Part shown: piece after piece, positions 3,078-21,519 of the stretch
How the letters are laid out: each line of letters opens with the position of its first letter
How positions within the stretch are numbered: position 1 is the first letter of the stretch
DNA from: a virus
Virus record (IMG/VR): IMGVR_UViG_3300037484_001834
Strand: one strand, 5' to 3'
Length of the DNA: 28,588 bases
Translations under genes and position numbers: made by a program
Notes under the pieces: model-generated
Databases searched by the model: none
What the model saw: only the letters and a program-made list of their open reading frames with translations
What the model was told of the DNA's origin: nothing

Positions 3078-3401
3078 TTATTGTCGTTTGATAAATTCAG
3101 CGAGAGCGCGATAGGGGCCGTCATTCTGAACGAGAATCGATTCGATTGTATAATCAAGGTTTTTATTTACGATCCACCAGTGGGGATCGGTTATTTCGAT
3201 CAGTTCGGTTATGATTCGGTCTATGTCTACTTGATTGATGGCACATTTGCCGCCAAATACATGTGGAGTAAAGTATCTTATACAAGAGAATCCCGAAAGT
3301 CTGTTAAGAACTTTTACCTTTAGGTTTATAGCTTCCGCGCGGAAGTTACCGGACAGGTCTACTATATTGACATTCTCTTTTGTAAAAACTGTAGCGCTCA
3401 T
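3078..3401 (-). CDS. hypothetical protein (AT-rich codon usage)
   Basis: ORF of 107 aa. Its ATG overlaps the downstream stop by 4 nt (ATGA at 3398-3401). Confidence 0.45.
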   Translation of the reverse strand: MSATVFTKENVNIVDLSGNFRAEAINLKVKVLNRLSGFSCIRYFTPHVFGGKCAINQVDIDRIITELIEITDPHWWIVNKNLDYTIESILVQNDGPYRALAEFIKRQ

Positions 3402-3835
3402 GTGTTTTCTCCTTTTGATTTGCTGTTTTTTTCTTCAGGTCCAATTACCGTTGATATTGAAACACGTTTATGAATGCAGTGGTCGCAAAGATAGTGGCCG
3501 TCGCCGTTGCACCCTTCCGGTCCTGCGGGTGTGCCCCCTTCGTAAGCTTCGCATTTATCGTCGGGCGCGCGAAGGTTTTTAGTGCCAACCCCGGCCCACT
3601 TTCCATTAGCTTCTTGATATACAATAACGTCGTATCCGTCCCAAAAGGCTGCCTGGCATACAATCAGCGCCTCACGCGGATCCTTGCCTATCCACCAAAC
3701 GTAATTTACGCCGCTTGAAATGGCGCCACGGGGAAGCATGACGGAGAAATGATCACTGCGGCCATTGTCGCACTCGATGAGGTAATGGCCTTTTTGGGGC
3801 TCTGGTTTTTTGGTGAGCCATTCAATGTGTTTCAT
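3398..3835 (-). CDS. Family-C paralogue (MKHIEWLTKKPEPQKGHYLIE...) with a Cys-rich C-terminal extension (CNGDGHYLCDHCIHK)
   Basis: 145 aa. Its N-terminal 75 aa align with the product of 3835..4065. ATGA overlap with the upstream gene at 3835. Confidence 0.5.
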   Translation of the reverse strand: MKHIEWLTKKPEPQKGHYLIECDNGRSDHFSVMLPRGAISSGVNYVWWIGKDPREALIVCQAAFWDGYDVIVYQEANGKWAGVGTKNLRAPDDKCEAYEGGTPAGPEGCNGDGHYLCDHCIHKRVSISTVIGPEEKNSKSKGENT

Positions 3836-4065
3836 CAGATTTTCCCGCAGTCAAGCGCAGTCCATTTACCTTCCACTTCGTGATAGATAGCAATGCTGTC
3901 ACCCTTTAACGTGGCAGCCTGACATGCTCTTAGAGCCTCATGTGGATCCGTACCCATCCACCATGTTACTGGCCATGCAAAGAGTGAGGGACAACTGTCG
4001 CTCTTGATAAGATAATGACCTTCTTGTGGGTCAGGTTTCTTGCTAAGCCATTCAATGCGCTTCAT
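3835..4065 (-). CDS. Family-C paralogue, short form (MKRIEWLSKKPDPQEGHYLIK...)
   Basis: Internal ATG at 4065 of the longer ORF 3835..4332. It forms an ATGA overlap with the methyltransferase stop. Paralogue of 3398..3835. Confidence 0.5.
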   Translation of the reverse strand: MKRIEWLSKKPDPQEGHYLIKSDSCPSLFAWPVTWWMGTDPHEALRACQAATLKGDSIAIYHEVEGKWTALDCGKI

Positions 4066-4646
4066 CACATTTTCCTTTCGTATCCAATCGACGTCATACC
4101 AAAGGCTGCGGCGGCTTTGACGAGCGCGCCGCTGCCGGCGAACGGGTCCAAAAACAGCCCGCCGGGAACGATCCAGGGCTTTACGGCCCATGACGCTACG
4201 GACGCAGGAAGCTCCGCACGTCGGCCGTTCCGGACCGGGGCCGCGGTGACGTGATCGAGCATCTCCGATGCCTCTTTCACATTCGCTTTGCCCTTTCGGA
4301 ACGCTATCGCCAAGACAGATGCGAATTTCCAACCAGGCGTTGTCACTTTTGAGCGGGACTGTGGTTTACACCAGGTGCCAATTCGGACGGGCTCCACAAC
4401 ACCACGTACGCTCTCTACCATGTAGCTCATGGACCGGTAGGAGGAAGCGCACATAACGATCATCCAACGCCCTCTCTTGAGTTTTTGGGCCGCTTCTCGC
4501 AGCACGACGGCGACAGTGGCCGAAATCGCATGCTCGTCTCCGGAGCCGCCGAAGGCATAGGGCGGATCGGTCACGATGAGATCGAGCTTGCGTTTTTCTC
4601 GTTGGATGAGGTCGAGGCAGTCGCCTTTGATTATTTTGAAGCTCAT
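4065..4646 (-). CDS. beta-class DNA methyltransferase, N6-adenine or N4-cytosine (PF01555-like); orphan, with no REase partner visible
   Basis: N-terminal IIKGDCLDLI...DLIVTDPPY (motif IV, DPPY) and C-terminal FLDPFAGSGA (motif I, FxGxG) are in the order typical of beta-class amino-methyltransferases. Start refined to the ATG at 4646 (MSFKIIKGD). 193 aa. Confidence 0.8.
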   Translation of the reverse strand: MSFKIIKGDCLDLIQREKRKLDLIVTDPPYAFGGSGDEHAISATVAVVLREAAQKLKRGRWMIVMCASSYRSMSYMVESVRGVVEPVRIGTWCKPQSRSKVTTPGWKFASVLAIAFRKGKANVKEASEMLDHVTAAPVRNGRRAELPASVASWAVKPWIVPGGLFLDPFAGSGALVKAAAAFGMTSIGYERKM

Positions 4647-4666
4647 AGCCAAAAAAGATCTTTGTT

Positions 4667-5104
4667 TTAAAGAAGGACCCATCCTTGGTTGGCGCATGCT
4701 CCACAGTTTCCAATAAGGAAGGAGAGCTCTATCTCGGCTGGACGCCGAAGCTTGCCTTCTTGCAAATGATCCCACCCCTCGTTTCTGGAGTCGTTGTTCC
4801 TGTCGGGGTAGATTACGTCTCCCTCGGGATTCACTTCGTATTCGACGTCGTAGGCCCAAATACCGCTATTCGAGCGATAACCCTCGATCACGGCGCCAGG
4901 GCCGAGTATGGCGCGAAAGAAGTCCCTTGGTGTTGGGAAGAATTCATAGGCCGCGCTCAGTCCCGCCTCGGCGCAATCGATATCATGAGAAAAGGCAAGT
5001 GGAATCGCATTCTTGCTCGTTATGCCTACGATACGGCCAGCTCGCAGACCGCTATGGCAAGCGAACAGCATCGTCTCCTTGATCGTTTTTGTTTCAAAGC
5101 TCAT
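4667..5104 (-). CDS. hypothetical protein
   Basis: ORF. Start refined to the ATG at 5104 (MSFETKT), 7 nt downstream of the preceding stop. Confidence 0.45.
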   Translation of the reverse strand: MSFETKTIKETMLFACHSGLRAGRIVGITSKNAIPLAFSHDIDCAEAGLSAAYEFFPTPRDFFRAILGPGAVIEGYRSNSGIWAYDVEYEVNPEGDVIYPDRNNDSRNEGWDHLQEGKLRRPAEIELSFLIGNCGACANQGWVLL

Positions 5105-5111
5105 GTAACAC

Positions 5112-5780
5112 CTATTTCTTTTCAATTTCGACGAAGTCGACGCGTTCGGAGTAATAGCCGTCAGACGTTCCCAGCCATCGAAACGTGACCGTTCCATGTG
5201 ATGTGCCAATAATGTAAAAAGTCCACGTAAATGACTCCCATGGATCTATCTCTTTTCCGTCAGGTAGTGGCTCATCAGATGAGGCTTCCTCTGCTCGCAC
5301 TACCTGAGAGCCAATCAAGTCGCCAACGTCTCCGCAAACGTCTTCCAGCAACACCGTTTCGCTGTCATCTTGTTCATGATACATGCGAAATCTACGGCCA
5401 TCAGTAAGCATGAAGTCGACAGAGTCGCTACCCTTCGTCGCTCCTTTGATGTGAGAAATCGTCTGTCCGATCAAGTCCTGGATTGTTCTCGCGGTCTCTT
5501 TCGGTTCTTCTTTTAACGTAGCACGCCTGGGCCTATCGGGAGCCGCCAAGATACGCGCTCCAAGTTGCTCCGCCCTGGAGATGGCAGAAGGTCCTACCGC
5601 ACACGTTGCGCCTAAGAGGGAATCGTGAATTCTCTCCATACTGGCGCCGCTCACTGGTCCCATAGCTCCAGGCCCTTCGAGATTCGCCAAAAAGTTGCTT
5701 TCCGGCCCAGGATCTATGGTGCCCGTCTCCGGATAGCAGCGCTTGCAACTCCTATTTGCTAGATCGTGGCGGCAGCTCAT
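5112..5780 (-). CDS. hypothetical protein with an N-terminal Cys cluster (CRHDLANRSCKRC)
   Basis: ORF of 222 aa with ATG at 5780. Confidence 0.5.
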   Translation of the reverse strand: MSCRHDLANRSCKRCYPETGTIDPGPESNFLANLEGPGAMGPVSGASMERIHDSLLGATCAVGPSAISRAEQLGARILAAPDRPRRATLKEEPKETARTIQDLIGQTISHIKGATKGSDSVDFMLTDGRRFRMYHEQDDSETVLLEDVCGDVGDLIGSQVVRAEEASSDEPLPDGKEIDPWESFTWTFYIIGTSHGTVTFRWLGTSDGYYSERVDFVEIEKK

Positions 5781-6629: not shown

Positions 6630-7133
6630 CTATTCCTCCGGAAGCTTGAATGGCGAAACGATGATTCGCGGCTCGACGTAGACCGGCCGCACGTCCGACC
6701 CCTTCGGATCCTTACACATGACCCATGTGCCCTCCGCGCCTGCCGGGGAAAACAGACCATTCGGATCGGCCTGGGGAATTACCGCTATCAAACCCCCGAC
6801 CCTCGTCTCGATTTTTTGGGGATTCGTGAACTGGGTAGCGTAGGGGATTCCATATCCGATGGACTGGCAGAAGAAAAACTTCTTGCCCGTCATCTCCGAA
6901 AACACATATGTGTACGTTACAAGACCGGTCTGGTCCCGAAGATCGAAAATGTCCCTAAGAAGTTTCTTCTCCCGAAAATTTTTGATGTTAGGCATACCGA
7001 CTTGTGAGGCGCCCTCGGCTAGGATTATTTCCTGCTGCTTGCGCTGGATAGCATCGCTATCGCTGCTTTCGTCACAGCCGCCGAAGACGAGACCTGCGGT
7101 CAGTAGGAGGGCAATTGCTGGAATTCGTTTCAT
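6630..7133 (-). CDS. putative lipoprotein
   Basis: N-terminal signal peptide MKRIPAIALLLTAGLVFGGC with a lipobox-like LVFGGC. 167 aa. 4-nt overlap with the upstream gene. Confidence 0.6.
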   Translation of the reverse strand: MKRIPAIALLLTAGLVFGGCDESSDSDAIQRKQQEIILAEGASQVGMPNIKNFREKKLLRDIFDLRDQTGLVTYTYVFSEMTGKKFFFCQSIGYGIPYATQFTNPQKIETRVGGLIAVIPQADPNGLFSPAGAEGTWVMCKDPKGSDVRPVYVEPRIIVSPFKLPEE

Positions 7134-7738
7134 GCTGTTTTCCTTTCGAGAGTCAACTTCGTTTCACAAAGACCCCTTGCACAGGTAATCCACGCCTTTC
7201 GGACATGGCAGCCCTTGCGCTTCGCGCACGCTTCACAGGCCTCGCATGCCTCGTAGGTTTCACACGATACGGCGGAGTTTTTCGCGAGAAGGCTTTGTCC
7301 CAAAAGAGCGATTCCGTTTTCCCTGGCCTCGCTTTTTGTAGCGGATTCCCCTGCTTTTCTTTCATCTTCCTTGATTTGCGAGGCAGCCAGGACTTCATCA
7401 TAGAGAGCCATGTTGTCGCCAAGAAGCTTGGTCGCCTCTTCTTCCGAGAGGATGTGATCGAATTTGCGCACGGGAGGAAGACGGCAGACGCCCAGGCGAT
7501 CCAAGCGGGCTCTCGGTTTATTGAAAGCGTACACGATGTGTACTGGCTCGCCATCTCCAGGCTCAATGTAGCCCGTACGAATGGCTTCTTGTCTGTTTAT
7601 GTTGAAGCCGACAAGTTGCACTTGCTCAAGAGCTCTTGGATCCAGCGAAGGATCTTTTTCAAGAGCATCATTGTTAAGTGCATAGCTTCCAATAACTCGA
7701 ATTGTTTTTTTCTTCGAGGCCGTAATTGTCTTTGCCAC
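7130..7738 (-). CDS. hypothetical protein carrying one copy of the RTGY/PEFDH-type module plus a Cys-rich C-terminus (CETYEACEACEACAKRKGC)
   Basis: GTG start with AGAGGAAAG SD. The internal segment EAIRTGY...FDHILSEEEATKLLGDNMALYDEVLA is repeated twice in the product of 9867..11639. Confidence 0.55.
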   Translation of the reverse strand: MAKTITASKKKTIRVIGSYALNNDALEKDPSLDPRALEQVQLVGFNINRQEAIRTGYIEPGDGEPVHIVYAFNKPRARLDRLGVCRLPPVRKFDHILSEEEATKLLGDNMALYDEVLAASQIKEDERKAGESATKSEARENGIALLGQSLLAKNSAVSCETYEACEACEACAKRKGCHVRKAWITCARGLCETKLTLERKTA

Positions 7739-8135: not shown

Positions 8136-8157
8136 GTTTTCTCCTGTCGGTTCGCAT

Positions 8158-8228
8158 TATCTTATATAAGATACCCACCACGTCAAGATCTTTCGTCGTT
8201 TTGGCCTTACATTCTCAAAATCCGAGAC
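8158..8228 (-). promoter_or_regulatory. Promoter P1: palindrome TTATCTTATATAAGATA (8158-8174) over the -10, -35 TTGACG (rc of 8181-8186), upstream dyad TTCTC-N7-GAGAC (8212-8228)
   Basis: Read directly; same architecture as P2-P9. Confidence 0.55.
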
Positions 8229-9458
8229 TTATGGCTTTTTGACGGGCTGACAGGGAACGTCGTCTTTTCCAAAGACGTAGGATTCATAGCCAGCAGCCCT
8301 GATGCTTCCCATGCCTTGGTACTCCTCAAGCCATGAGTCAAGACCAACTGGGTCCGGCCGCCAGATGCGTGTCGTTTGATTCTTATCGAGCTCGCAAAGC
8401 ACGATGGAGGCCGCCGGGTCGCTCAGGGCATCGAGGAAGCGATTAGAATGCGTCGCAATGAGCATGGGGGCTTTTTTGGCCATTTCCTCAAGCATCCAAA
8501 CGACTCTGGATTGAAGAGCAGGATGCAGATTTACTTCCGGATCGTCAAAGGAGAGGATCGAGGGCGTGGTGCTCCCCGCAGGACCTGCGGTCAGCAGGGT
8601 GCTCCCCGCAGGGGTTTCATGAAGCGCGCTGAGCGCGACAAAGGCGAGGTAGCTTCGCTGCCCATCGGACATCATGCTTACCGGCAGGGATTTTCCGGAA
8701 AGCGACCCAAAAACCGCTTCGAGCTCGATATCGGAAGCTCCTGAAGGCTTTAGAACGAGGTCCTTGAGATCGGCCGAAAGTCCGAGTCGCGCCTTTTCCA
8801 AAACTTTTTGCCAGGTGTCTTTTCCCTGTTCGCGAAGTTTTTGGAATGCTCTTGGGAAGGTAAGGGTTTCTTCATGTGGGTGAGTTTTCTCCTTGATCGT
8901 GTAGGGCCAGCCACATTCGTGACCTGAATCGATCCGATCGAGCGCTTGGGCAAGGCGCTCCGTTTCCAGCGATACGCGTCGAATCTCCGGTAGGGCAAGC
9001 GCGTTGGGGGGAATAGATATTTTTTTGCCATTTAATGCATCGAATAGGGAAAGATCAACGACGTGATCGTTCCGCTTTTCCCGCAACATCACACGAACGG
9101 GCTTTTTGTCTTTGTGCACATCGATGCTTTCGTCAACAACGACTACCGAGCCGCCCAGGCAGGCCACGGCGAAGTCATAGTCTATTCTTGGCCCATCGCC
9201 TTCAATCGTGACCCCTAGACCGATCTGGTCTCTTCCTTGACGAAGAAGCGATTGGGCTCTTCCGTGAATTTTCATCGCGCCGTCTATGGATGGAGTTTTT
9301 CTGGCGGCGTGGCCGATGATATCGAGCGCATCGAGGATAGTGGTCTTGCCCGTACCATTACCTCCGATTAGTACCGTGAGCCCGCGAAGGTCCAGCTCGA
9401 TGTGATCGATTACGCGCAGGCCCGATATCCGAAGTTGAGTGATGCAGTCTTGACTCAT
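8229..9458 (-). CDS. ABC/OLD-type AAA ATPase (AAA_21/AAA_15-like) with no nuclease domain
   Basis: Walker A LIGGNGTGKTT, ABC-signature-like SDGQRSYLAF, Walker B/D-loop LSFDDPEVNLHP and H-loop IATHS. Start refined to the ATG at 9458, which forms an ATGA overlap with the upstream ORF stop at 9455. An in-frame PAGST repeat lies between the signature and Walker B. Confidence 0.85.
   Translation of the reverse strand: MSQDCITQLRISGLRVIDHIELDLRGLTVLIGGNGTGKTTILDALDIIGHAARKTPSIDGAMKIHGRAQSLLRQGRDQIGLGVTIEGDGPRIDYDFAVACLGGSVVVVDESIDVHKDKKPVRVMLREKRNDHVVDLSLFDALNGKKISIPPNALALPEIRRVSLETERLAQALDRIDSGHECGWPYTIKEKTHPHEETLTFPRAFQKLREQGKDTWQKVLEKARLGLSADLKDLVLKPSGASDIELEAVFGSLSGKSLPVSMMSDGQRSYLAFVALSALHETPAGSTLLTAGPAGSTTPSILSFDDPEVNLHPALQSRVVWMLEEMAKKAPMLIATHSNRFLDALSDPAASIVLCELDKNQTTRIWRPDPVGLDSWLEEYQGMGSIRAAGYESYVFGKDDVPCQPVKKP
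8568..8612. repeat. Two copies of ggtgctccccgcagg flanking an inverted CCGCAGG-A-CCTGCGG hairpin, in frame within the AAA ATPase gene
   Basis: Read directly. Confidence 0.85.
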
Positions 9459-9844
9459 GGTGATGTGCTCCAATTCCGCTCAGAAAGCCACGAGATAAGC
9501 TCCCCGTGGCGTTCTTCTGGTTTAAAAGTGCCTTCGATGGTCTTTCCATCAGTTACCTCGCCATGGAAGTCGCAAAATCCTTCAGGAGCGATATTGATGA
9601 GTATGGCGAAGTTTGATACGCGCCAGTGGATGTCGATGGACCCATCGGCCGCGGGCGTGATTTCTGGGGCGTCGATCGCGAGCCCGGTCTTCTGCATGAT
9701 TGTGCTCGCGATTCCTCTTAGGAAACTGGTGGCGCGCTCCCAGGTAACCGGTCTCATAGCAGGGCTTCCCTCGCCGTCCCAGTCTTCCTCGAGCTTCACG
9801 ATGAAGGACGACTGAGTGATGGCGCGTTCGATGGCTTCAATCAT
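9455..9844 (-). CDS. hypothetical 129-aa protein, translationally coupled to the AAA ATPase
   Basis: ORF with ATG at 9844. ATGA overlap with the ATPase gene. Confidence 0.5.
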   Translation of the reverse strand: MIEAIERAITQSSFIVKLEEDWDGEGSPAMRPVTWERATSFLRGIASTIMQKTGLAIDAPEITPAADGSIDIHWRVSNFAILINIAPEGFCDFHGEVTDGKTIEGTFKPEERHGELISWLSERNWSTSP

Positions 9845-9866
9845 GGCTAGTCGATTCGCGCCTATA

Positions 9867-11639
9867 TTAGGTTGGGTAGGCTGCGCACGAAGCCCGATAA
9901 TGCTCCGCTATGATCAAGCGGTAGTGTTCCTTCCGGAGATGACCGGACCAAGTGTCGATGTTTTGATCGGCTTGTCCATTGTTGAAGATCATTTCGCCGC
10001 TCGCATCCAGCCCTTTCATTTTCAGGATGCGTATGGGAATGCCTCTCCAGTCCAGGAGAATGCTTCCCGCCGGCAAGTTTTCGTAGAATTCCTCGAGCGA
10101 AGCGCCTTCGGATTCCTTTGGCGGCTCGTTAACGCGATTACAATCGACATCCATCCTGAGCGCGACTACGTTGTTTTTGTTCCAGGGGCATCTCATGATC
10201 AGAGCCGGCGCCCAGTTTGGGTCGTCGGAGCTCAAGCCAATTAAGCGAAGCTCTACGTTTCCGTCAGGCCATTTTTTCCGAGCTAGAATGAGCGCATCGA
10301 TTTCGCTTTCCGTCGGATCTTCACGTACTGTTGTGACTGATTTCAAAGGCATCCAGTCCGGCAGCTCGTGCGCAAGACGTTCGTCGTGGTACAACTCGCG
10401 GACCTGATCGAGAATCTTTGCCTCGAAAACCGCCTTCTGAAGCCGCGAGCTCCCATGCTCCTTTATCCACCCCAAAATGGGCTCATCGGCTCTCTTTTTT
10501 CGTTCGCTGATGAGAAACTCCATGGTTTTATCGACTTGATCTTCGCCGGATTCCTCCTCGATGAAGTCGTAACGCAAGGAAACTCGTTCATCGTCCATCT
10601 CGAACCACTCTGGAACATCGTGGTCCGGATCAATCACGCAAGGCTCGCCCTCCTTTATTTTCGGCAGGTAGTAATCGAGATTGGTCATGAGCTCATCAAT
10701 CTCCTCACGCCGTTTTCTTTCTTCTTTCGAAGTTTTCGAGCGGCCTTCTGCCAGAACGGCTTCCTTGGTCTTCATGGCCTCTGCCAGGACTTCATCGTAC
10801 CGAGCCATTTCGTCGACGATGAGCTTGGTTGCCTCCTCGGCCGTGAGCACGTGATCGAATTCCGGAGGCGCGTTTCCCTCGCGCAAGACGCTTTCGTTAC
10901 CTGGCGTCATTTTGCTAAAGAGTCTTCCAGCGCTACCGGCCGGTGACGCCTGTCCATTTTTATCGAGGTGCAAATACCCCGTGCGCAAGGCCTCCCGCGC
11001 GCTTACGGTGACGTTTACGTGCTGTTCCCGGGTCGTAGGGGTACCGGCGAGGAAAAGCTCCCTGTGCGCCTCCTCTGTAAGGCTATAAATGCCCGTGAGG
11101 GTGATCATGACCGTATTCGCGTTCGCTCGCTTGTCGTAGGCGGCGCGAGAGACGCCCAAGACTTTGTCATATCGCGCCATCTCTTTTTCGATCATCTCTG
11201 TGGCTTCCGCCTTCGACAGAATATGATCAAATTCCGGCAGGACAGAACCCCATTCCACACCGAGCTGAGCGAGATTCGGCTTGAGCTTGCAGAGAATAAA
11301 ATCGGTTCTGTCATAAATCTCCGCGTCCAGATCCGGCGACCATATTTTTCGAGCATAGCCCGTTCTGATGGCTTCATCCTTATCGAGCGTTACGGCGATA
11401 TATTGTCTTTTCCAAGGGGAGTCGGAGAATCCGTAAGGGGAGACCGTCGTCTTTTTAAGGGTCTCATTGGTGAGATTGTAACAAGCGGTGAGCAGAATGG
11501 TGGGAGTGCTCTCCGCAGGAGTGCTCTCCGCAGGAGTGCTCTCCGCAGGAGTGCTCTCCGCAGGAGTGCTCTCCGCAGGAGTGCTCTCCGCAGGAGTGCT
11601 CTCCGCAGGAGTGCTCTCCGCAGGAGTGTTTCTTTTCAT
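9867..11639 (-). CDS. multidomain hypothetical protein: N-terminal 8x PAEST tandem repeat, two RTGY/PEFDH-type modules, and a C-terminal Family-B domain (WPDGNVELRL...ALIMRCPW)
   Basis: 590 aa. ATG at 11639 with AAAGGACA SD. The internal repeats and the paralogy to 7130..7738, 11682..12140 and 15763..16179 are seen directly in the translations. Confidence 0.65.
   Translation of the reverse strand: MKRNTPAESTPAESTPAESTPAESTPAESTPAESTPAESTPAESTPTILLTACYNLTNETLKKTTVSPYGFSDSPWKRQYIAVTLDKDEAIRTGYARKIWSPDLDAEIYDRTDFILCKLKPNLAQLGVEWGSVLPEFDHILSKAEATEMIEKEMARYDKVLGVSRAAYDKRANANTVMITLTGIYSLTEEAHRELFLAGTPTTREQHVNVTVSAREALRTGYLHLDKNGQASPAGSAGRLFSKMTPGNESVLREGNAPPEFDHVLTAEEATKLIVDEMARYDEVLAEAMKTKEAVLAEGRSKTSKEERKRREEIDELMTNLDYYLPKIKEGEPCVIDPDHDVPEWFEMDDERVSLRYDFIEEESGEDQVDKTMEFLISERKKRADEPILGWIKEHGSSRLQKAVFEAKILDQVRELYHDERLAHELPDWMPLKSVTTVREDPTESEIDALILARKKWPDGNVELRLIGLSSDDPNWAPALIMRCPWNKNNVVALRMDVDCNRVNEPPKESEGASLEEFYENLPAGSILLDWRGIPIRILKMKGLDASGEMIFNNGQADQNIDTWSGHLRKEHYRLIIAEHYRASCAAYPT
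11506..11625. repeat. 8x perfect 15-nt tandem repeat gtgctctccgcagga (encodes PAEST x8 on the minus strand)
   Basis: Read directly. Confidence 0.95.
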
Positions 11640-11681
11640 TGGAAATGTCCTTTCAATAGAGATCTTCGAGTCTTTGGCGGT

Positions 11682-12140
11682 TCATTTTTCGATTTCTACG
11701 TTTTTTCCCGAAGAGTACAGCCGGTCGATAAACATTATCGCCCATGCGTCTGGCTCCCACGGCAAGGTCATCATGAGCGCCGGCTCCCAATCCGTTTTTT
11801 CATAACAGCGAACGGCGCGTAATTCGAGAGTCGATGAATCCGGCCACATTTTCTTTGCGATTACAAAGGTATCGATCTCATGCTCTTTCGCATTGGTTCG
11901 CACCTGGAAGTCGTTTTCTGGAACGTCGCTCCAGTCATACCACTTGTCGCCCAAGTCGAATTTGATTCGCTCCGTTCGATAGACGCCGTTCATTTGCAGA
12001 CCGGCCTCAAGACCCTTCTTGAGGCGCGCGGAGCCGTGCAAGCGGATCCATTCCGATCGCTCGTTTTCTTTTTCCACGCCTTTTACCATCATAGTCTCCC
12101 ATTCCGATCGGTCGTTTTGTTCTTCCGCGCTTTGAGCCAT
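11682..12140 (-). CDS. Family-B paralogue (RLHGSARLKKG... WPDSSTLELR...ALMMTLPW)
   Basis: 152 aa. Strong SD AAGGAGA 8 nt upstream of the ATG at 12140. First gene after promoter/operator P2. Confidence 0.55.
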   Translation of the reverse strand: MAQSAEEQNDRSEWETMMVKGVEKENERSEWIRLHGSARLKKGLEAGLQMNGVYRTERIKFDLGDKWYDWSDVPENDFQVRTNAKEHEIDTFVIAKKMWPDSSTLELRAVRCYEKTDWEPALMMTLPWEPDAWAIMFIDRLYSSGKNVEIEK

Positions 12141-12163
12141 TATCGTCTCCTTGGTGTCATTGC

Positions 12164-12193
12164 TTATCTTACATGAGATAAAAATGTAATCAA
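12164..12193 (-). promoter_or_regulatory. Promoter P2: TTGATT-N16-TAAGAT with palindrome TTATCTTACATGAGATAA over the -10
   Basis: Read directly. 18-nt leader with AAGGAGA SD to the ATG at 12140. Confidence 0.6.
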
Positions 12194-12596: not shown

Positions 12597-12622
12597 TTAT
12601 CTTATGTAAGATAAGTCGTCAA
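12597..12622 (-). promoter_or_regulatory. Promoter P3: TTGACG (-35) plus palindrome TTATCTTATGTAAGATAA
   Basis: Read directly. -10 is weaker (TAAACG/ATAAAC). Confidence 0.5.
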
Positions 12623-15699: not shown

Positions 15700-15750
15700 T
15701 GCGTGAGATAGAAAGGGAGTCAAGAGGAACTTTTCTCAAAAACCGAGAAT
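15700..15750 (-). promoter_or_regulatory. Promoter P4: TTGACT-N16/17-(C)AAAATA with a half-operator, plus upstream dyad TTCTC-N7-GAGAA (15734-15750)
   Basis: Read directly. Drives the Roadblock/OmpA/coiled-coil operon. Confidence 0.5.
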
Positions 15751-15762: not shown

Positions 15763-16179
15763 TCATTGCTTATTGTCAAAGGGCTTCTCGATCGCGAGAT
15801 CGACTCGGGGCAATTTCTCCTGGATGTAAAGAACGATTTCATCTTCTTTTGACCATGGGCAATCCATGATCAAGACCGACCATTGGCTACGATAGAGCCC
15901 AGAGTCGATCAAGCAGCACAGGCGAACATTTCCTTCGGGAAACTGCTTCTGCGTCTCCATGAGCATGTTTCCTTCGGTCTCGGAAGAGCTTTTCATTGGG
16001 AAAAGACGATCGTACCTGGAGGCAATTTTCCACTTCGGTAGCTCAAGCGCCAGACGCTCTATGAGATAGATTTTCCAAAGAATTTCCTTGATCCCGCCTT
16101 TCTCAAGAACAGCCTTTTTAAGACGGGGGCTACCGTGTTTCCCTACCCAAGACAAAGCGGACTCTTCTGGCGAGCTCAT
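15763..16179 (-). CDS. Family-B paralogue (KHGSPRLKKAVLE...ELPKW...FPEGNVRLCCL...VLIMDCPW)
   Basis: 138 aa. SD AAAGGAAAG. Downstream of promoter P5. Confidence 0.55.
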   Translation of the reverse strand: MSSPEESALSWVGKHGSPRLKKAVLEKGGIKEILWKIYLIERLALELPKWKIASRYDRLFPMKSSSETEGNMLMETQKQFPEGNVRLCCLIDSGLYRSQWSVLIMDCPWSKEDEIVLYIQEKLPRVDLAIEKPFDNKQ

Positions 16180-16202
16180 GGGCTTTCTTTCCTTTCATTC
16201 TC

Positions 16203-16231
16203 TATTTTATGTAAGATAATCCTCGGGTCAA
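16203..16231 (-). promoter_or_regulatory. Promoter P5: TTGACC-N16-TAAAAT with operator TATTTTATGTAAGATAAT; about 90% identical over ~60 bp to P6
   Basis: Read directly. Confidence 0.6.
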
Positions 16232-16257: not shown

Positions 16258-18102
16258 TCAGCGTCGTACGATCATCAACGCTGTTCGAACTTGGGTTCCC
16301 TGGTCAGAAAAGGTCCCGGCCGGCAACTCTTCCCACATAGTGGCTAAAGGGCGCAACTCCGTTTGCTGGCGAGGACCGTTTGCGCACAGAGCGACGAGGA
16401 CGCCGTCGCGCTCTAGGAAGCTTAGGGCGTGCTTGACGTGAGCAATATCCTCACCTTTGTGAAAGGGTGGGTTCATCAGGATCTTGTCATATCGTCCGAG
16501 GTTTTCGGTGGTACAGGTCAGGAAGTCCTGGCAGATGGCTTCGCCGCTTGATAGGAGGCTGGCAGGCAGACCATCACAAAGGGTGCGATTGATTTCGACG
16601 GCGAAAACATTAGCCATCGGCTGCATATCGATGATTGCGCGGAGTAGGTTGCCGGTTCCGGCACTCGGTTCGAGTACGCGATCATTGTCCTTAATGTCGG
16701 CGAGCATGGCCATGCGAACGGCGAGAGCCGGTGGAGTAGGAAAGAGTTGCGGGGCGGATACGACTTTTACGCCGGTCTTGAGTGTCTCCTTGAGCGCGAC
16801 GAAGGGAGCGGCCTCTTCACTTTTTTGCCTGTGTATTGATTTTCGCGCTTCGCTCGCCATCAGCCGCTCGCGAGCTTCATCGATTTTCCTGGCTAGCAAA
16901 GATTCGCGCGCGGCTTCGTCTTTTGCGGCTTGTGCTTTCACGGTTGTGGCGTTGGGCCGCGCGTGTTGTTTCGAATCAGTGAGATATACAACGGATAGGC
17001 CGGCCGCGCGATCTGGGCGGTTGAGCATTGCCGTGCGTAGCCGATGGGTTCCGTCCGCCGAAACGCAGGTGCCCTTGTAATCGGTATGAAGCTTCGCCCA
17101 TTCAGCTTTCGTGATACCCACCGCCTCGGTCGTTCGCGGCTCGTTCTGCCGGCAATCGCGAACCGACACCATGCCGGCGTAGTTCAGAAGGGGCAAGGCG
17201 GTTTTTTGGGATTTCCTGGGCGGAGGCTGGTATCCGCTTGCGGCAAGTAGGGCGCGCTCGTAGGTAAGTCGGTTATCGAGGTGGGAGATCCATCGGTTGG
17301 CCTCAGCGATGATCTTCTCGTGATTCGCTATATAGCGCGCTTGCGCCTCAGCCGGGGTCATTGCGCCGCTTTCGATTTTGGACCACAGGCCAGTTGAGGA
17401 GCGGTCGAGGCCAGCGACATGGGTGACGCGTTCCTGAAACGTGCTTGCGCCACCACCTGACTTATGGATGCTGTCGTCCTGGTCGAGCTTCTTCCACAGA
17501 GCGAGAAACGCCGTGCTGCTCTTCAGGTCACGATCATGGCTGCGCCTCTCGGCTTCGAGCTTCTTGATTCTGCGCGCACGCACAGCGGGCAACTCCTTGT
17601 ATTCCGCATGCCGAATGGCTCCAGAAGCACGATCTTGCCAATATTGGCTTGTCTCCCACAGCTTTACGGCCCGGCGCATGCCGCTTTCGATTCGATCAGC
17701 GTCGCGGCGCGCGTGTCGCTCGGAGTGATGGCCAACGAGAATGGGCTGGCCGAGAGGAATGCCGTTGGCGATGCACGCAACCGCCCTGTGGGCCTGCTCG
17801 GCGTCGGCCGCGCGCTTGCCCTGGTATGTGGCAAATCGCTCGGCTCGCGCGGCCGCGCGCTCTTCGAGGCTGGTTTCTTCGTCGTCTATATCACCAGCCA
17901 GCTCAGTGAGCAGATCTTCGCGGGATGGCGTCCAGACCGCATAGAAAAGATCTTGCTTCGGCGCCCAACCGAAGCCGGCCGTCTTTACCTTGGCGTAAGT
18001 TTCAGCGTCCAGACGCGAGCTGGCGCGCAGGCGGAGCTTGTCGTCGGTGGCGTCATATGTAGCCTCAAAGTCGATCACAGCGCGCTCTTCCGATAAGGTC
18101 AT
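16258..18102 (-). CDS. DUF3560 domain fused to an N6-adenine DNA methyltransferase (NPPF), orphan; typical of plasmid leading/anti-restriction regions
   Basis: The N-terminal TYDATDDKLRLRASSRLDAETYAKVKTAGFGWAPKQ...VW matches DUF3560. C-terminal motif I VLEPSAGTGNLLRAI and motif IV ILMNPPF. Start refined to the ATG at 18102, ATGA-coupled to the upstream gene. Confidence 0.85.
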   Translation of the reverse strand: MTLSEERAVIDFEATYDATDDKLRLRASSRLDAETYAKVKTAGFGWAPKQDLFYAVWTPSREDLLTELAGDIDDEETSLEERAAARAERFATYQGKRAADAEQAHRAVACIANGIPLGQPILVGHHSERHARRDADRIESGMRRAVKLWETSQYWQDRASGAIRHAEYKELPAVRARRIKKLEAERRSHDRDLKSSTAFLALWKKLDQDDSIHKSGGGASTFQERVTHVAGLDRSSTGLWSKIESGAMTPAEAQARYIANHEKIIAEANRWISHLDNRLTYERALLAASGYQPPPRKSQKTALPLLNYAGMVSVRDCRQNEPRTTEAVGITKAEWAKLHTDYKGTCVSADGTHRLRTAMLNRPDRAAGLSVVYLTDSKQHARPNATTVKAQAAKDEAARESLLARKIDEARERLMASEARKSIHRQKSEEAAPFVALKETLKTGVKVVSAPQLFPTPPALAVRMAMLADIKDNDRVLEPSAGTGNLLRAIIDMQPMANVFAVEINRTLCDGLPASLLSSGEAICQDFLTCTTENLGRYDKILMNPPFHKGEDIAHVKHALSFLERDGVLVALCANGPRQQTELRPLATMWEELPAGTFSDQGTQVRTALMIVRR

Positions 18103-18392
18103 GCGTTCTCCTGTATTCGTCGGCGAGACGGCCTTTTTTCGTAGCCGAGATCCCGAAGGAATCCTTGTCCTACGGGAGAGCCGAGCCACTGAATGACCGT
18201 GGCGGCGACCGTAAAATCACGGACGCTAGGTTCCGGTGGAATATGACTGGATTGATCTCCTGCAAGGAGCAGATAGGCGAGATTCGAGCCATACTCGCTC
18301 CGTCTGTTCCACTTGACCCACTCCTCGGCAAACCGCTTTTCCTCGGGATTATCCCGAAAACGGTATGGATGAAGTCCTTGGATCTTTTTCAT
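18099..18392 (-). CDS. hypothetical 97-aa protein, first gene of the methyltransferase operon
   Basis: ATG at 18392 with GAGAGGAAAAAA SD. Immediately downstream of promoter/operator P6. Confidence 0.5.
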   Translation of the reverse strand: MKKIQGLHPYRFRDNPEEKRFAEEWVKWNRRSEYGSNLAYLLLAGDQSSHIPPEPSVRDFTVAATVIQWLGSPVGQGFLRDLGYEKRPSRRRIQENA

Positions 18393-18415
18393 GCTCGTTT
18401 TTTCCTCTCATTTTC

Positions 18416-18444
18416 TATTTTACGTAAGATAATTCTCGGGTCAA
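18416..18444 (-). promoter_or_regulatory. Promoter P6: TTGACC-N16-TAAAAT with operator TATTTTACGTAAGATAAT; drives the 97-aa gene plus the DUF3560-methyltransferase
   Basis: Read directly. -10 rc at 18417-18422, -35 rc at 18439-18444. Confidence 0.6.
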
Positions 18445-19939: not shown

Positions 19940-19995
19940 TCTTAGCGTGCGAGACTTTAGATATGATCTGTCGATCTTTCTTAAAATCCGAGAAT
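19940..19995 (-). promoter_or_regulatory. Regulatory region P7 upstream of the FGE gene: dyad TTCTT-N7-GAGAA (19977-19993); -35/-10 not clearly assignable
   Basis: Shares the AAAATCCGAGAAT motif with P8. Hexamers are weak. Confidence 0.35.
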
Positions 19996-19997
19996 AC

Positions 19998-20414
19998 CTA
20001 TGAAGCCCAATCCACGAGTCTATCCATTAGTCCAAGGCGATCGATCTCCGCGCGGACTTGGCCAACGATCTCCGGTCCACTCCACGTTACGGACACGGGG
20101 CATGCGGCCTCAAATAGCCTTTCCGCGCAGTCGATGAAGTACGCGCGGGCCGGAACGACGCCATATGTGTTCGCGCAGGCCTCTGTCGAATGGGCTTCTT
20201 CTACGGATCGGGCGCGCGTCCACTCTTTAACGTCTGGTAGAAACACTTTTGTGTATATGTTCGGCTGCCATGTCAAGTCGAGCAGTCGTTCGATCTCGTT
20301 CATCTGCCAGGAGAAAGCCCCCAGGATCCAAACGCGTCCTTCGCGCTCTATGCTGCGCGCGAGCCGATCGGTCGCTGCTACTTCACAGGGAAGGGTCCAG
20401 ATTCGATTCTTCAT
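19998..20414 (-). CDS. Family-A paralogue, short form (MKNRIWTLP...RVWILGAFSWQMNEIERLL)
   Basis: Start refined to the ATG at 20414, ATGA-overlapping the stop of 20411..21487. Confidence 0.55.
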   Translation of the reverse strand: MKNRIWTLPCEVAATDRLARSIEREGRVWILGAFSWQMNEIERLLDLTWQPNIYTKVFLPDVKEWTRARSVEEAHSTEACANTYGVVPARAYFIDCAERLFEAACPVSVTWSGPEIVGQVRAEIDRLGLMDRLVDWAS

Positions 20415-21487: not shown

Positions 21488-21502
21488 GTTCTCGATTTCC
21501 TT

Positions 21503-21519
21503 TTCTCGAAAAGTGAGAA
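21503..21519 (-). promoter_or_regulatory. Internal TTCTC-N7-GAGAA dyad 16-32 nt upstream of the start codon of 20411..21487 (overlaps the RBS region)
   Basis: Read directly. No -35/-10 follows it. Confidence 0.4.

What the first reader, a model, noticed from the sequence alone, without database searches (positions are those of the whole stretch)
8229..12140. Candidate defence or anti-defence operon: Family-B protein, 590-aa repeat protein, 129-aa protein and ABC/OLD-type ATPase, all translationally coupled
A nuclease-less ABC/AAA_21-type ATPase (Walker A, signature, Walker B, H-loop) is a hallmark core of many phage-defence systems (Septu, PARIS, Gabija-like, Lamassu-like). Here it is ATGA-coupled to a 129-aa protein of unknown fold. 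It is preceded by a large protein combining a PAEST-repeat N-terminus, two RTGY/PEFDH-type modules and a Family-B domain. None of the partners resembles known effectors (HNH, TOPRIM, DUF4435). The whole unit sits under operator-controlled promoter P2.
Basis: partly seen in the sequence, partly recalled or inferred. Interest (0 to 1): 0.6.

Follow-up and report, generated by a model that had tools for sequence, protein, structure and literature searches.

The report
Mosaic operon with orphan ABC ATPase
Four genes transcribed together on a rare, uncharacterised mobile element include a real defence-type ABC ATPase that has no nuclease partner, but they are a patchwork of element-specific proteins plus a small captured two-gene cassette, not a conserved four-gene immune system.

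Summary
The four ORFs are real. They lie on the minus strand between two copies of a repeated promoter-operator. The 409-aa protein is a complete AAA_15/AAA_21 ABC ATPase with no nuclease domain. Its start overlaps the stop of the 129-aa gene (ATGA).

The "four-gene system" reading does not hold.
- The 152-aa and 590-aa proteins belong to two paralogous families specific to this rare element. The 590-aa family has 9 proteins among 5.8 billion. In related contigs these families occur without the ATPase.
- The closest ATPase relatives (76% identity) have no 129-aa gene, only a roughly 45-nt remnant of its 3' end. So a 129-aa + ATPase cassette was ancestral, and the small gene was later deleted.
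- The 129-aa protein is not an orphan. It belongs to a large family (2,026 cluster representatives) that matches the C-terminal domain of the untested PADLOC candidate PDC-M32A. The family is common in phage contigs. The model (pLDDT 93) is a non-catalytic alpha+beta fold.
- More distant ATPase relatives (about 35-45% identity, high-GC, named ones Myxococcota) either carry an overlapping ~200-aa partner that looks TOPRIM-like by eye, or stand alone. That partner is absent here.

The surroundings resemble a conjugative-element establishment or leading region. The best reading is conflict-related accessory cargo of undetermined direction.

The parts
12160..12193 (-). Promoter-like site with an overlapping palindromic operator (cTTGATT, 16 nt, TAAGAT; palindrome TTATCTCATGTAAGATAA at 12164-12181). 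It starts the unit.
   Evidence: Sequence read. The palindrome recurs at 7 sites, and 6 of them have a TTGAC/TTGAT -35 hexamer at the same distance. The site scores 8 of 12 and so falls below the generic scanner's threshold.
11682..12140 (-). 152-aa stand-alone Family-B protein. Its 5' end carries a 51-nt tandem duplication.
   Evidence: 35% identity to residues 391-497 of the 590-aa protein. A paralogue lies at 15763-16179. No Pfam, PADLOC, PHROG or NCBIfam match. Tandem repeat at 12048-12150. Related elements have an unrelated 155-aa gene (L001, L008) or a 407-aa module + Family-B protein (L023) at this position.
9867..11639 (-). 590-aa multidomain protein, the conserved core gene of the element family. 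Layout: PAEST x8 (residues 6-45), two ~120-aa RTGY/FDH modules (46-174, 177-298), a charged linker, a middle domain (326-384), the Family-B domain (385-504) and a C-terminal extension (505-590).
   Evidence: Only 9 family members among 5.8 billion proteins. Alignment A1. 35 module instances recovered by HMM, consensus in A5. No Pfam or PDB sequence match. dN/dS 0.38 against L008.
11503..11628 (-). Perfect 15-nt tandem repeat encoding (PAEST)x8 at the N-terminus of the 590-aa protein.
   Evidence: TRF: period 15, 8.4 copies, 100% matches. Relatives have 0-3 PADSG-type copies.
9455..9844 (-). 129-aa stand-alone domain related to the C-terminus of PDC-M32A (motifs WDGEGS, ADGSIDIHW). Predicted to be a non-catalytic alpha+beta protein-binding fold.
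8229..9458 (-). 409-aa ABC ATPase (AAA_15/AAA_21) with no nuclease domain. Its start overlaps the stop of the 129-aa gene.
   Evidence: Pfam above cut-off. PADLOC HEC-01A 8.4e-27 and many others. PDB: OLD 6p74 at 5e-13 and PtuA at about 3e-12, on motif regions only. Alignment A2 shows a 17-aa deletion of the family's conserved HVPFETRPLWQQ segment and a 20-aa insert before Walker B. dN/dS 0.28 against L008.
8150..8229 (-). End of the unit and start of the next one: the palindrome AGTCTCGGATTTTGAGAA (8229-8212), then the promoter-operator TTGACG, 16 nt, TAAGAT (8186-8159) for the next gene (8135-7761).

Best explanation
The region is one transcription unit, about 12190 to 8229 on the minus strand. 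It sits inside a one-strand, repeatedly operator-regulated array of accessory genes on a rare, uncharacterised mobile element. The closest analogy to that array is the establishment or 'leading' region of a conjugative plasmid or ICE. The unit is a mosaic of two parts.

(a) Two proteins come from element-specific paralogous families: the 152-aa Family-B protein and the 590-aa module + Family-B protein. The 590-aa gene is the conserved core gene.

(b) Downstream lies a small captured cassette. It consists of a stand-alone domain related to the C-terminus of PDC-M32A (129 aa) and an ABC ATPase of the OLD/HEC-01A/PtuA/AriA kind. The start of the ATPase gene overlaps the stop of the 129-aa gene.

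Proposed working, all inferred: the ATPase dimerises on ATP, like its relatives, and acts as an ATP-driven clamp or scaffold on a nucleic acid or protein ligand. The 129-aa alpha+beta domain is a non-catalytic adaptor or regulator that binds either the ATPase or a target. No nuclease is encoded in the unit. The output would therefore be sequestration or recruitment of another factor, not direct cleavage.

The cassette most likely serves the element in conflict with its host, with phages or with rival elements. The evidence does not decide whether it defends or counter-defends. The 129-aa gene is dispensable for keeping the ATPase.
For: SHOWN
- Unit boundaries: the same promoter-operator design occurs at six sites, including 12193-12160 and 8186-8157.
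- Mosaicism: the 590-aa family is followed by this ATPase only in the window and in L001, L002 and L008. It is followed by a methyltransferase or a DUF7448 gene in L006, L007 and L023, and by other genes plus a different 309-aa AAA_21 ATPase in L022.
- Ancestral cassette: the 67-nt spacer before the ATPase in L008 and L001 aligns with the last ~45 nt of the window's 129-aa ORF. The score is 46, against a shuffle mean of 13, sd 2.1, maximum 25. The spacer reads GELVSMPS*RNWST where the window reads GELISWLSERNWSTS. That stretch is the family-conserved C-terminal helix.
- Left edge of the same deletion: the 590-aa C-terminal extension is present in the more distant P0122 and missing from L008. 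This fits a single deletion of about 0.6 kb.
- The ATPase is intact and constrained: all motifs are present and dN/dS is 0.28.
- ATPase class.
- The 129-aa family occurs as stand-alone 113-150-aa genes in phage contigs. In five independent loci it is paired with a PDC-M32B-like gene. It is never next to this ATPase family outside the window.
- Context: all genes lie on one strand. There are two orphan methyltransferases, a RelB antitoxin and an RtcB ligase. The DUF3560-methyltransferase is 41-42% identical over 93-98% of its length to proteins in at least 5,000 plasmid records. 84% of the 5,000 best-scoring records are conjugative.
- A comparable one-strand array surrounds that gene on plasmid pOLGA2.
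- Published leading regions carry orphan methyltransferases, toxin-antitoxin genes and anti-defence genes on one strand (PMC11541004).
Against: - No relaxase, oriT, replication, capsid or terminase gene lies in the 28.6-kb contig or in its relatives. The type of mobile element is inferred from analogy and from one shared protein.
- No DNA or protein match for the ATPase or the 590-aa protein was found in the phage or plasmid collections or in IMG/VR.
- The 129-aa + ATPase pairing exists intact in only one sequence.
- Several neighbouring genes (OmpA, Roadblock/LC7, a vault-like protein, FGE-sulfatase) are unusual for a plasmid leading region.
- Some ATPase relatives stand alone between ruvC and ruvAB in a chromosome. 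A role in DNA metabolism is therefore not excluded.
- No interaction between any two of the four proteins has been tested or modelled.
Confidence: 0.5

Rival explanations
1. One reading: the four genes form one dedicated anti-phage (or anti-plasmid) defence system. The ABC ATPase is the sensor or motor, and one of the unknown partners (590-aa, 152-aa or 129-aa) is a new effector.
For: - The ATPase is of the defence-associated AAA_15/AAA_21 class.
- The four genes share one promoter-operator.
- ABC ATPases recur downstream of module-family proteins in this element family. There are three different ATPases: the window type, a 309-aa one in L022, and a second one after the 883-aa protein in L008.
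- L001 also carries a GmrSD_N-like fragment, so defence-like cargo does occur in these elements.
- The module has invariant or near-invariant polar residues (E, R, T, Y, D, H) that could form an active site.
Against: - The four genes do not co-occur outside the window.
- The 590-aa family exists without any ATPase.
- The ATPase persists under constraint after the 129-aa gene was deleted.
- No partner matches any effector model.
- The 129-aa fold shows no catalytic resemblance.
- In L008 the second ATPase has its own terminator and promoter.
Confidence: 0.1
2. Counter-defence by mimicry. The element carries partner-less copies of host immune components. The orphan ATPase would soak up the host's TOPRIM-type effector or poison mixed oligomers. 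The stand-alone PDC-M32A-like domain would neutralise PDC-M32B-type toxins. Both would help the element establish itself in a new cell.
For: - Three of the five sets of high-GC relative loci examined (L005, L009, L010) carry an overlapping ~200-aa partner with an E...DxD pattern. That partner is absent from the window and from every related element locus.
- The element's ATPases have lost a 17-aa segment that is nearly invariant in the family.
- Stand-alone short forms of the 129-aa domain are found in phage contigs. Longer forms pair with a PDC-M32B-like gene.
- The surroundings are rich in orphan methyltransferases and include RtcB and RelB, on one strand, as in leading regions.
- dN/dS is somewhat higher than in the neighbouring genes.
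Against: - I know of no precedent for an ABC-ATPase decoy (my own knowledge, not searched).
- The ATPase motifs are fully conserved, which a passive sponge would not need.
- The relatives that carry the partner have 65-75% GC and the element about 52%. They may not be the element's hosts.
- The TOPRIM assignment of the partner rests on motifs read by eye. It has no Pfam or PADLOC hit.
- PDC-M32 is an untested candidate system.
Confidence: 0.2
3. Element maintenance or DNA metabolism. The ATPase is an SMC/RecF-like DNA clamp used for replication, repair or segregation of the element, possibly together with the multi-module 590-aa protein. It is not an immune protein.
For: - The general ABC/SMC_N-type N-terminus gives weak RecF, RecN and Rad50 P-loop matches.
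- One clade of relatives stands alone between ruvC and ruvAB in 20 contigs.
- The family is widespread in Myxococcota genomes.
- The only gene that always lies next to the element's ATPase clade is the upstream 590-aa family gene.
Against: - RecF, RecN and SbcC models match only the P-loop and score far below their cut-offs.
- The best profile matches are all to defence-type ATPases.
- The ATPase is absent from several otherwise syntenic relatives (L006, L007, L023). It is therefore accessory, not a maintenance gene.
- The position between ruvC and ruvA, together with a K+ channel gene, could simply be an insertion site.
Confidence: 0.1
4. Decaying cargo. The cassette is a remnant of a two- or three-gene system that has lost its effector and no longer does anything useful.
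For: - The partner gene is absent.
- A conserved 17-aa segment is deleted, and a 20-aa low-complexity PAGST insert sits just before Walker B.
- The 129-aa gene has already been deleted in sister contigs.
- The ATPase is missing altogether from other relatives.
Against: - The ORF is intact in five contigs from different samples and keeps all catalytic motifs.
- dN/dS of 0.28 at dS 0.46 indicates continuing purifying selection.
- The ribosome-binding site and leader are conserved.
Confidence: 0.1

Closest known systems
HEC-01 (PADLOC candidate: ABC ATPase HEC-01A + TOPRIM protein HEC-01B; bioRxiv 10.1101/2024.01.29.577857)
   Same: HEC-01A is the best PADLOC match to the ATPase, at 8.4e-27. It is also the best match to the second ATPase type in L022. 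Three high-GC relative loci have an overlapping ~200-aa downstream gene with an E...DxD pattern, which is the same two-gene layout.
   Different: The window has no TOPRIM gene. The match covers two partial stretches only. The ~200-aa partner of the relatives does not match HEC-01B or any other model. HEC-01 gave no protection in its authors' assay.
OLD-family nucleases, Gabija GajA, PARIS AriA and Septu/retron PtuA (AAA_15/AAA_21 ABC ATPases of defence systems)
   Same: Same ATPase class and motifs. The closest solved structures by sequence are OLD 6p74 (5e-13), PtuA (about 3e-12) and AriA (2e-4). PADLOC and NCBIfam also match.
   Different: The matches are limited to the P-loop and the signature/Walker B regions. 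All NCBIfam scores are about ten times below the cut-offs (PtuA 44.9 against 500; MAD3 45.4 against 420). There is no TOPRIM, HNH, DUF4435 or helicase partner and no fused nuclease.
PDC-M32 (untested two-gene PADLOC candidate: PDC-M32A of ~375 aa and PDC-M32B of ~123 aa)
   Same: The 129-aa protein and 24 of 30 of its relatives match the C-terminal part of PDC-M32A, around profile positions 266-338 of 375. Relatives are followed by a PDC-M32B-like gene in L017-L019, L020, L026, L029 and L030.
   Different: The window protein is only the C-terminal domain. It has no PDC-M32B-like neighbour. Its downstream gene is an ABC ATPase, a pairing seen nowhere else.
Anti-defence and establishment islands in the leading regions of conjugative plasmids (Nature 2024, PMC11541004)
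   Same: A one-strand gene array with orphan DNA methyltransferases, a toxin-antitoxin component and many unknown small genes. The DUF3560-methyltransferase is shared with thousands of conjugative plasmids.
   Different: No oriT, relaxase, SSB, PsiB or ArdA is present. The promoters look like ordinary double-stranded sigma-70 promoters with operators, not Frpo/ssi hairpins. The word 'ATPase' does not occur in the main text of that paper.

Membership tests
Pfam AAA_21 / AAA_15 (ABC-type ATPases of the OLD/AbiEii/PtuA kind) | Score above Pfam's gathering cut-off, with Walker A, signature, Walker B and H-loop present | tested here: met
   AAA_21 69.4 bits (cut-off 27); AAA_15 59.4 bits (cut-off 32.1). 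The motifs lie in invariant columns of alignment A2.
Septu (PtuA + PtuB) | The PtuA equivalog model is reached | tested here: not met
   NCBIfam PtuA scores 44.9 bits against a cut-off of 500.
Septu (PtuA + PtuB) | An adjacent HNH nuclease, PtuB | tested here: not met
   No HNH or PtuB match for any neighbour in Pfam or PADLOC.
PARIS (AriA + AriB) | An AriA-type ATPase with an adjacent DUF4435/TOPRIM protein, AriB | tested here: not met
   AriA models match only residues 260-348 or 11-55. There is no AriB, DUF4435 or TOPRIM match in the unit.
Gabija / OLD nucleases | A TOPRIM nuclease domain fused to the ATPase (plus the GajB helicase for Gabija) | tested here: not met
   The 409-aa protein is fully accounted for by the ATPase. 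No TOPRIM or UvrD-like match was found.
HEC-01 | A HEC-01A-type ATPase | tested here: inconclusive
   It is the best PADLOC hit (8.4e-27) but covers partial stretches only. PADLOC models have no curated cut-off.
HEC-01 | An adjacent TOPRIM protein, HEC-01B | tested here: not met
   No homologue of the ~200-aa partner of the high-GC relatives, and no TOPRIM protein, in a six-frame search of the window and the related loci.
PDC-M32 | A full-length PDC-M32A (~375 aa) | tested here: not met
   Only profile positions 266-338 of 375 are matched, at 1.4e-4. The protein is 129 aa long. The family-level match is clearer: 24 of 30 members, best 8.7e-12.
PDC-M32 | An adjacent PDC-M32B | tested here: not met
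   An HMM built from four PDC-M32B-like partners finds nothing in the window.
RecF / RecN / SbcC (housekeeping SMC-like ATPases) | The equivalog model is reached over the full length | tested here: not met
   RecF scores 32.1 bits (cut-off 172) and RecN 26 bits (cut-off 408), both on residues 6-50 only.
Leading region of a conjugative element | Position next to an oriT or relaxase, with genes on the transferred strand | not testable with these tools
   No relaxase or oriT lies in the 28.6-kb contig. Only the one-strand layout and the shared DUF3560-methyltransferase could be checked.

The most novel reading that the evidence does not exclude
The element carries 'disarmed' copies of host immune parts as counter-defence. 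One is an ABC ATPase that has lost its TOPRIM partner and a conserved internal segment; it would act as a sponge or poison subunit for host ATPase-nuclease systems. The other is a stand-alone PDC-M32A-type domain that would neutralise PDC-M32B-type toxins. In addition, the RTGY/FDH module + Family-B proteins would be a new class of establishment or anti-defence proteins with no detectable relatives. They occur in 1-5 tandem copies per protein and only in this element family.
Probability: 0.15. Interest if true: 0.7.

Novelty: new variant of a known kind. Interest (0 to 1): 0.35.

Why it matters
Nuclease-less AAA_15/AAA_21 ATPases are often taken as proof of a defence system. This case shows why the gene neighbourhood must be compared before a "system" is declared. 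Here the operon is a patchwork. The family's own partner gene is missing. Some relatives sit in ordinary chromosomal surroundings.

If the cassette does act in conflict, it would be the first pairing of a PDC-M32A-type domain with an ABC ATPase. It could also be an example of a mobile element carrying a partner-less immune ATPase.

Separately, the RTGY/FDH module and the Family-B domain are new domains with no match in Pfam, in the PDB by sequence, or in the phage and plasmid collections. They are confined to a very rare element.

The practical significance is modest. The evidence rests on a handful of metagenomic contigs.

Tried and rejected
SEARCHES THAT FOUND NOTHING
- DNA searches (blastn) of 8229-12140 against the plasmid and phage collections: no match.
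- tblastn of the 590-aa protein and of the ATPase against both collections: no match.
- IMG/VR scans with the 590-aa protein and with the ATPase: nothing.
- The word-index protein search for the 129-aa protein found only itself. The exhaustive phmmer search was needed to find its family.
- Profiles of the 590-aa family (A1), the module (A5) and the 129-aa family (A3) against PDB sequences: nothing.
- Pfam scans of the modules and of all partner proteins: nothing credible.
- tRNA and Rfam scans of the window: nothing.
- No terminal repeats on the contig.
- Literature searches for the MAG accession: no paper. Cluster look-up gave no taxonomy.

SEARCHES THAT UNDERPERFORMED
- The genome-contig scan with the ATPase alignment hit its candidate limit and returned only two true relatives, both Sorangium.
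- The metagenome scan with the 590-aa family added three short contigs.
- The single-sequence AlphaFold model of the 129-aa protein was unusable, at pLDDT 53.
- The afdb50 fold library was not available.
- The contigs of P0001 and P0129 could not be retrieved.

IDEAS REJECTED
- The 129-aa protein as a TOPRIM or other nuclease. Its topology (two N-terminal helices, a five-strand antiparallel sheet and a C-terminal helix) does not look TOPRIM-like, and no nuclease appears among the fold-search matches.
- The 590-aa protein as a strongly acidic DNA mimic. Its pI is 4.9, only moderately acidic and similar to several neighbours.
- The C-terminal extension of the 590-aa protein as a marker for the presence of an ATPase. 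L001 and L008 have the ATPase without the extension.

NOT DONE
- The 590-aa protein was not folded.

Full report
**1. What is in the sequence**

Every sizeable ORF in the 28,588-base window lies on the minus strand. The window is a complete JGI metagenome contig. The finding covers four consecutive genes:
- 12140-11682, 152 aa
- 11639-9867, 590 aa
- 9844-9455, 129 aa
- 9458-8229, 409 aa counted from the ATG. The public gene call uses this ATG, not the upstream TTG at 9473.

The junctions are a 42-nt gap, a 22-nt gap and an ATGA overlap. Only the last pair is translationally coupled in the strict sense. The ATPase also has its own GGAG ribosome-binding site about 10 nt upstream of its start.

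Upstream of the first gene lies cTTGATT, 16 nt, TAAGAT. The palindrome TTATCTCATGTAAGATAA covers the spacer and the -10 hexamer. The same design recurs at 8186-8157, 12640-12597, 16235-16202, 18448-18415 and 27035-27002. A seventh copy of the palindrome lies at 3273.

The next such promoter follows directly after the ATPase stop. A second recurring palindrome, (A)TTCTCGGATTTTGAGAA, precedes it. That palindrome also occurs at 15750, 19995, 21520, 22273 and 27062.

So the four genes form one of at least six similarly built, probably co-regulated units. It is sequence evidence only.

**2. The ATPase**

- It passes Pfam's cut-offs for AAA_21 and AAA_15.
- It has Walker A (GGNGTGKT), the signature (MSDGQ), Walker B (SFDDPE) and the H-loop (ATHS), all in invariant columns of a 22-sequence family alignment.
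- No other domain is present.
- The best PADLOC matches are HEC-01A (8.4e-27) and PDC-M07A, followed by AriA, PtuA, mad3 and GajA.
- The best solved relatives by sequence are an OLD nuclease and several PtuA proteins (about 1e-12), on motif regions only.
- NCBIfam equivalog models (MAD3, PtuA, RecF, RecN) all score about ten times below their cut-offs.

The protein is therefore a defence-type ABC ATPase by class. It is not a member of any named system, and it is not RecF or SbcC.

**3. Relatives of the ATPase**

The nearest relative is 76% identical. It occurs on contigs from the same element family: L001-L003 and L008.

The remaining hits start at 42-44% identity. Those that carry a name are mostly Myxococcota (Chondromyces, Sorangium, Haliangium, Cystobacter and others), and the loci fetched for them have high GC (65-75%).

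- In three such loci (L005, L009, L010) the ATPase stop overlaps the start of a ~200-aa gene. These three partners are homologous to each other. They show an N-terminal ...YEDQ and a later VDxD pattern, which looks TOPRIM-like by eye. They have no Pfam or PADLOC hit.
- In Chondromyces (L004) the ATPase stands alone.
- In a clade found on 20 contigs (L040-L045) it also stands alone. There it sits with a K+ channel gene between ruvC and ruvAB.

An HMM of the ~200-aa partner finds nothing in the window or in any related element contig.

The element's ATPases also lack a 17-residue segment (HVPFETRPLWQQ...) that is nearly invariant in the rest of the family. The window copy alone has a 20-residue insert (ETPAGSTLLTAGPAGSTTPS) between the signature helix and Walker B.

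Even so, dN/dS between the window and L008 is 0.28 at dS 0.46. The gene is under constraint.

**4. The 129-aa protein**

The word-index search found only the protein itself. The exhaustive search found 2,026 cluster representatives at E<=1e-3 and 825 at E<=1e-10. In most of them the ~120-aa domain lies at the C-terminus of 170-250-aa proteins. Conserved motifs are DDWDxEGS, PGPDGSIDLHW, FYGD and a C-terminal LLxWL.

Twenty-four of 30 members match the C-terminal part of PADLOC's PDC-M32A (best 8.7e-12). The window protein itself scores 1.4e-4. No Pfam family matches.

With a 150-sequence alignment, AlphaFold2 gives a confident model (pLDDT 93.1, pTM 0.86). It has two N-terminal helices packed on a five-stranded antiparallel sheet, followed by a C-terminal helix.
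- Foldseek against the PDB finds nothing significant.
- BFVD has one uncharacterised phage protein at E 4e-5.

Nothing suggests catalysis. The fold type is one often used for protein binding. That last step is an inference.

Surroundings of family members:
- A PDC-M32B-like ~130-165-aa gene follows in L017-L019, L020, L026, L029 and L030.
- Stand-alone 113-150-aa forms sit among small genes in phage contigs of up to 348 kb.
- In one case the gene overlaps the end of an RtcB gene (L021).
- None of the 17 loci has an ATPase of this family next to it.

**5. The cassette is ancestral and the small gene was later lost**

In L001 and L008 the ATPase is preceded by a 67-nt spacer. The last ~45 nt of that spacer align with the 3' end of the window's 129-aa ORF at about 80% identity. 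The score is 46, against a shuffle mean of 13, sd 2.1, maximum 25.

In the corresponding frame the spacer reads GELVSMPS*RNWST. The window reads GELISWLSERNWSTS, which is the family-conserved C-terminal helix.

On the other side, the L008 protein ends exactly where the C-terminal extension of the window's 590-aa protein begins. That extension is also present in the more distant P0122.

The simplest account is one deletion of about 0.6 kb in the L001/L008 lineage. It removed the extension and most of the 129-aa gene. Two things follow: the 129-aa + ATPase junction predates the split, and the ATPase is kept without the small gene.

**6. The 590-aa and 152-aa proteins**

The 590-aa family has nine members among 5.8 billion proteins. 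A few more turned up on short metagenome contigs.

The 590-aa protein is laid out as follows:
- a variable low-complexity N-terminus. In the window this is a perfect (PAEST)x8 encoded by 8.4 copies of a 15-nt unit.
- two ~120-aa modules in the window; relatives have up to five
- a charged linker
- a middle domain
- the ~120-aa Family-B domain
- a C-terminal extension, present only in the window and in P0122

The module consensus is ..ITL.G.Y.LT.EA....Q.I.V.VDA.EALRTGY....L.KL.P.L...GV.R....PEFDHIL..EEAT.IV..EMARYDEVL.

The module also occurs alone at 7738-7130 and 691-71. Family-B also occurs alone at 12140-11682 and 16179-15763.

None of these domains matches Pfam, PHROGs, NCBIfam, PADLOC or PDB sequences. 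Their function is unknown. The conserved E/R/T/Y and D/H residues could mark a binding site or an active site.

**7. The four genes are not one system**

Gene order in the related contigs:

| Contig | Order |
|---|---|
| Window | Family-B 152 aa, 590 aa, 129 aa, ATPase |
| L001, L002, L008 | unrelated 155 aa, 510-522 aa, ATPase, 63 aa |
| L006, L007 | 87 aa, 65 aa, 486 aa, N6_N4 methyltransferase |
| L023 | 407 aa (module + Family-B), 513 aa, DUF7448 gene and methyltransferase |
| L022 | 545 aa, 114 aa (module), 149 aa (Family-B), 418 aa, a different 309-aa AAA_21 ATPase with an overlapping downstream gene |

The 590-aa gene is core. What follows it is a variable slot.

ABC ATPases of three kinds turn up in or near such slots. 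One is a second ATPase after the 883-aa five-module protein in L008, with its own terminator and promoter. This could reflect a functional link with module proteins. It could also mean only that these positions are cargo hotspots.

**8. The surroundings**

The window also encodes:
- a RelB antitoxin, a TPR protein and an RtcB RNA ligase
- a 903-aa protein with major-vault-protein shoulder and repeat domains
- an FGE-sulfatase domain protein
- a 643-aa DUF3560-methyltransferase and an N6_N4 methyltransferase
- a DUF7448 protein
- Roadblock/LC7 proteins, an OmpA-domain protein and a LemA-like protein

Relatives add Dam and Dcm methylases, a protein kinase and a GmrSD_N fragment.

The DUF3560-methyltransferase is 41-42% identical over 93-98% of its length to proteins in at least 5,000 plasmid records. 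Of the 5,000 best-scoring records, 84% are typed as conjugative. In phages only the methyltransferase part matches.

On plasmid pOLGA2 that gene sits in a long one-strand array of small unknown genes, with a zincin-like peptidase and another methyltransferase. Published leading regions have the same character: orphan methyltransferases, toxin-antitoxin genes and anti-defence genes, all on the transferred strand (PMC11541004).

On this analogy I read the window as an establishment or accessory array of a conjugative-type element. No relaxase, oriT, replication or packaging gene is present, so this remains an inference. The element family has about 52% GC, far from the 65-75% of the high-GC ATPase relatives.

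**9. Verdict**

The "all coupled" claim and the "no known resemblance" claim for the 129-aa protein are not.

The ATPase is of the defence-associated class and has no nuclease. But the unit is a mosaic, not a conserved system. It meets the definition of no known system. The nearest candidate, HEC-01, lacks its TOPRIM gene here and is itself unvalidated. Part of the ATPase family looks chromosomal and solitary.

My best account (confidence 0.5) is an accessory, conflict-related cassette (129-aa adaptor + ATP-driven clamp or scaffold). It is co-transcribed with two element-specific proteins. The direction, defence or counter-defence, is open.

The rivals are:
- a counter-defence decoy (0.2)
- a genuine four-gene defence system (0.1)
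- element DNA maintenance (0.1)
- decaying cargo (0.1)

Novelty: a new variant of a known kind (a new pairing for a known ATPase class), plus two undescribed domains. Interest is moderate to low (0.35). The evidence rests on a few metagenomic contigs, and no mechanism can be fixed without experiments or complex modelling.

Noticed in passing
window 8157-8174, 12164-12181, 12597-12614, 16202-16219, 18415-18432, 27002-27019 (and 3273-3290): A palindrome, TTATCTTAnnTAAGATAA, overlaps the -10 hexamer of promoters of the form cTTGAC/TTGAT, about 16 nt, TAAGAT/TAAAAT. It occurs at six sites plus one extra palindrome copy. This implies one repressor controlling many units of the element. The repressor is not identified.
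   Followed up: partly
window 8212-8229, 15731-15750, 19978-19995, 21501-21520, 22256-22273, 27045-27062: A second recurring palindrome, (A)TTCTCGGATTTTGAGAA, lies between transcription units, sometimes about 50 nt upstream of the first operator type. It could be a second operator or an RNA or terminator element. It has too few G-C pairs to qualify as a terminator stem in the scanner used here.
   Followed up: no
window 11503-11628, 1225-1289, 8555-8581: The same kind of 15-nt unit (GGAGTGCTCTCCGCA, encoding PAEST, PAGST or PAGGT) appears in three different genes. It is a perfect 8.4-copy array in the 590-aa gene, a 4.3-copy array in the 514-aa gene (706-2250), and a single repeat-like insert inside the ATPase just before Walker B. 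Copy number differs between related contigs, which suggests slippage-prone hypervariable linkers.
   Followed up: partly
window 12048-12150: A 51-nt tandem duplication (2 copies, 83% matches) at the 5' end of the 152-aa Family-B gene duplicates the peptide ...NDRSEWETMM / ...NERSEWIRLH.
   Followed up: no
window 22371-25082: A 903-aa protein has major-vault-protein shoulder (1.1e-19) and vault repeat (1.2e-8) domains. This is an unusual find on a bacterial mobile element.
   Followed up: no
window 25667-26953 and 25425-25649; L021 2-1113: An RtcB RNA ligase (3e-126) is followed by a 74-aa gene. Paralogues of that small gene (59-66% identity) follow the ATPase in L001, L002, L003 and L008. In an unrelated contig (L021) an RtcB gene overlaps the start of a member of the 129-aa family. 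This hints at a link between RNA repair and these small proteins.
   Followed up: partly
window 16258-18189: A 643-aa DUF3560 + methyltransferase protein is 41-42% identical over 93-98% of its length to proteins in at least 5,000 plasmid records, mostly conjugative Klebsiella and Escherichia plasmids. It is the best clue to the element type.
   Followed up: partly
window 7130-7738 and 71-691: Two further proteins each carry one RTGY/FDH module. The 202-aa one ends in a Cys-rich tail (ETYEACEACEACAKRKGCH...C..GLC), possibly metal-binding, which is conserved in L008 and L003.
   Followed up: no
L008 12653-12940: After the 883-aa five-module protein come a terminator-like hairpin, a TTGACA promoter and the start of a second, different ABC ATPase (GENGTGKT). 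The contig ends inside it. Together with the 309-aa AAA_21 ATPase in L022, three ATPase types lie downstream of module proteins.
   Followed up: partly
L001 451-960: A 169-aa ORF with a GmrSD_N (DUF262) domain, a fragment of a type IV restriction enzyme, is inserted between the coiled-coil/Roadblock gene and the LemA-like gene in a close relative of the window.
   Followed up: no
L040-L045 (about 4001-5239): A 39%-identical relative of the ATPase is a solitary gene that sits, with a TrkA-type K+ channel gene, between ruvC-yebC and ruvAB on 20 contigs from several samples. It is either an insertion hotspot or a hint of a role in DNA repair.
   Followed up: partly
L005 4052-4705; L009 6242-6835; L010 6236-6829: A conserved ~200-aa protein overlaps the stop of the ATPase gene in high-GC relatives (two of them Sorangium). 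It has YEDQ and VDxD motifs that look TOPRIM-like, but no Pfam or PADLOC hit. It may be an undescribed nuclease partner family.
   Followed up: partly
L017 5529-5921; L026 6333-6779; L029 6345-6839; L030 6324-6794: PDC-M32B-like proteins of ~130-165 aa follow members of the 129-aa family. They have conserved RVH, STxW and NRAHTD motifs and no Pfam match. They could be the toxin or effector of that candidate system.
   Followed up: no
window 706-2250, 20411-21487, 21523-22068; 3398-3835 and 3835-4332: The window holds further paralogous gene families besides the module and Family-B families (27-43% identity between copies). The element is built largely from duplicated, diverging gene families.
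   Followed up: no
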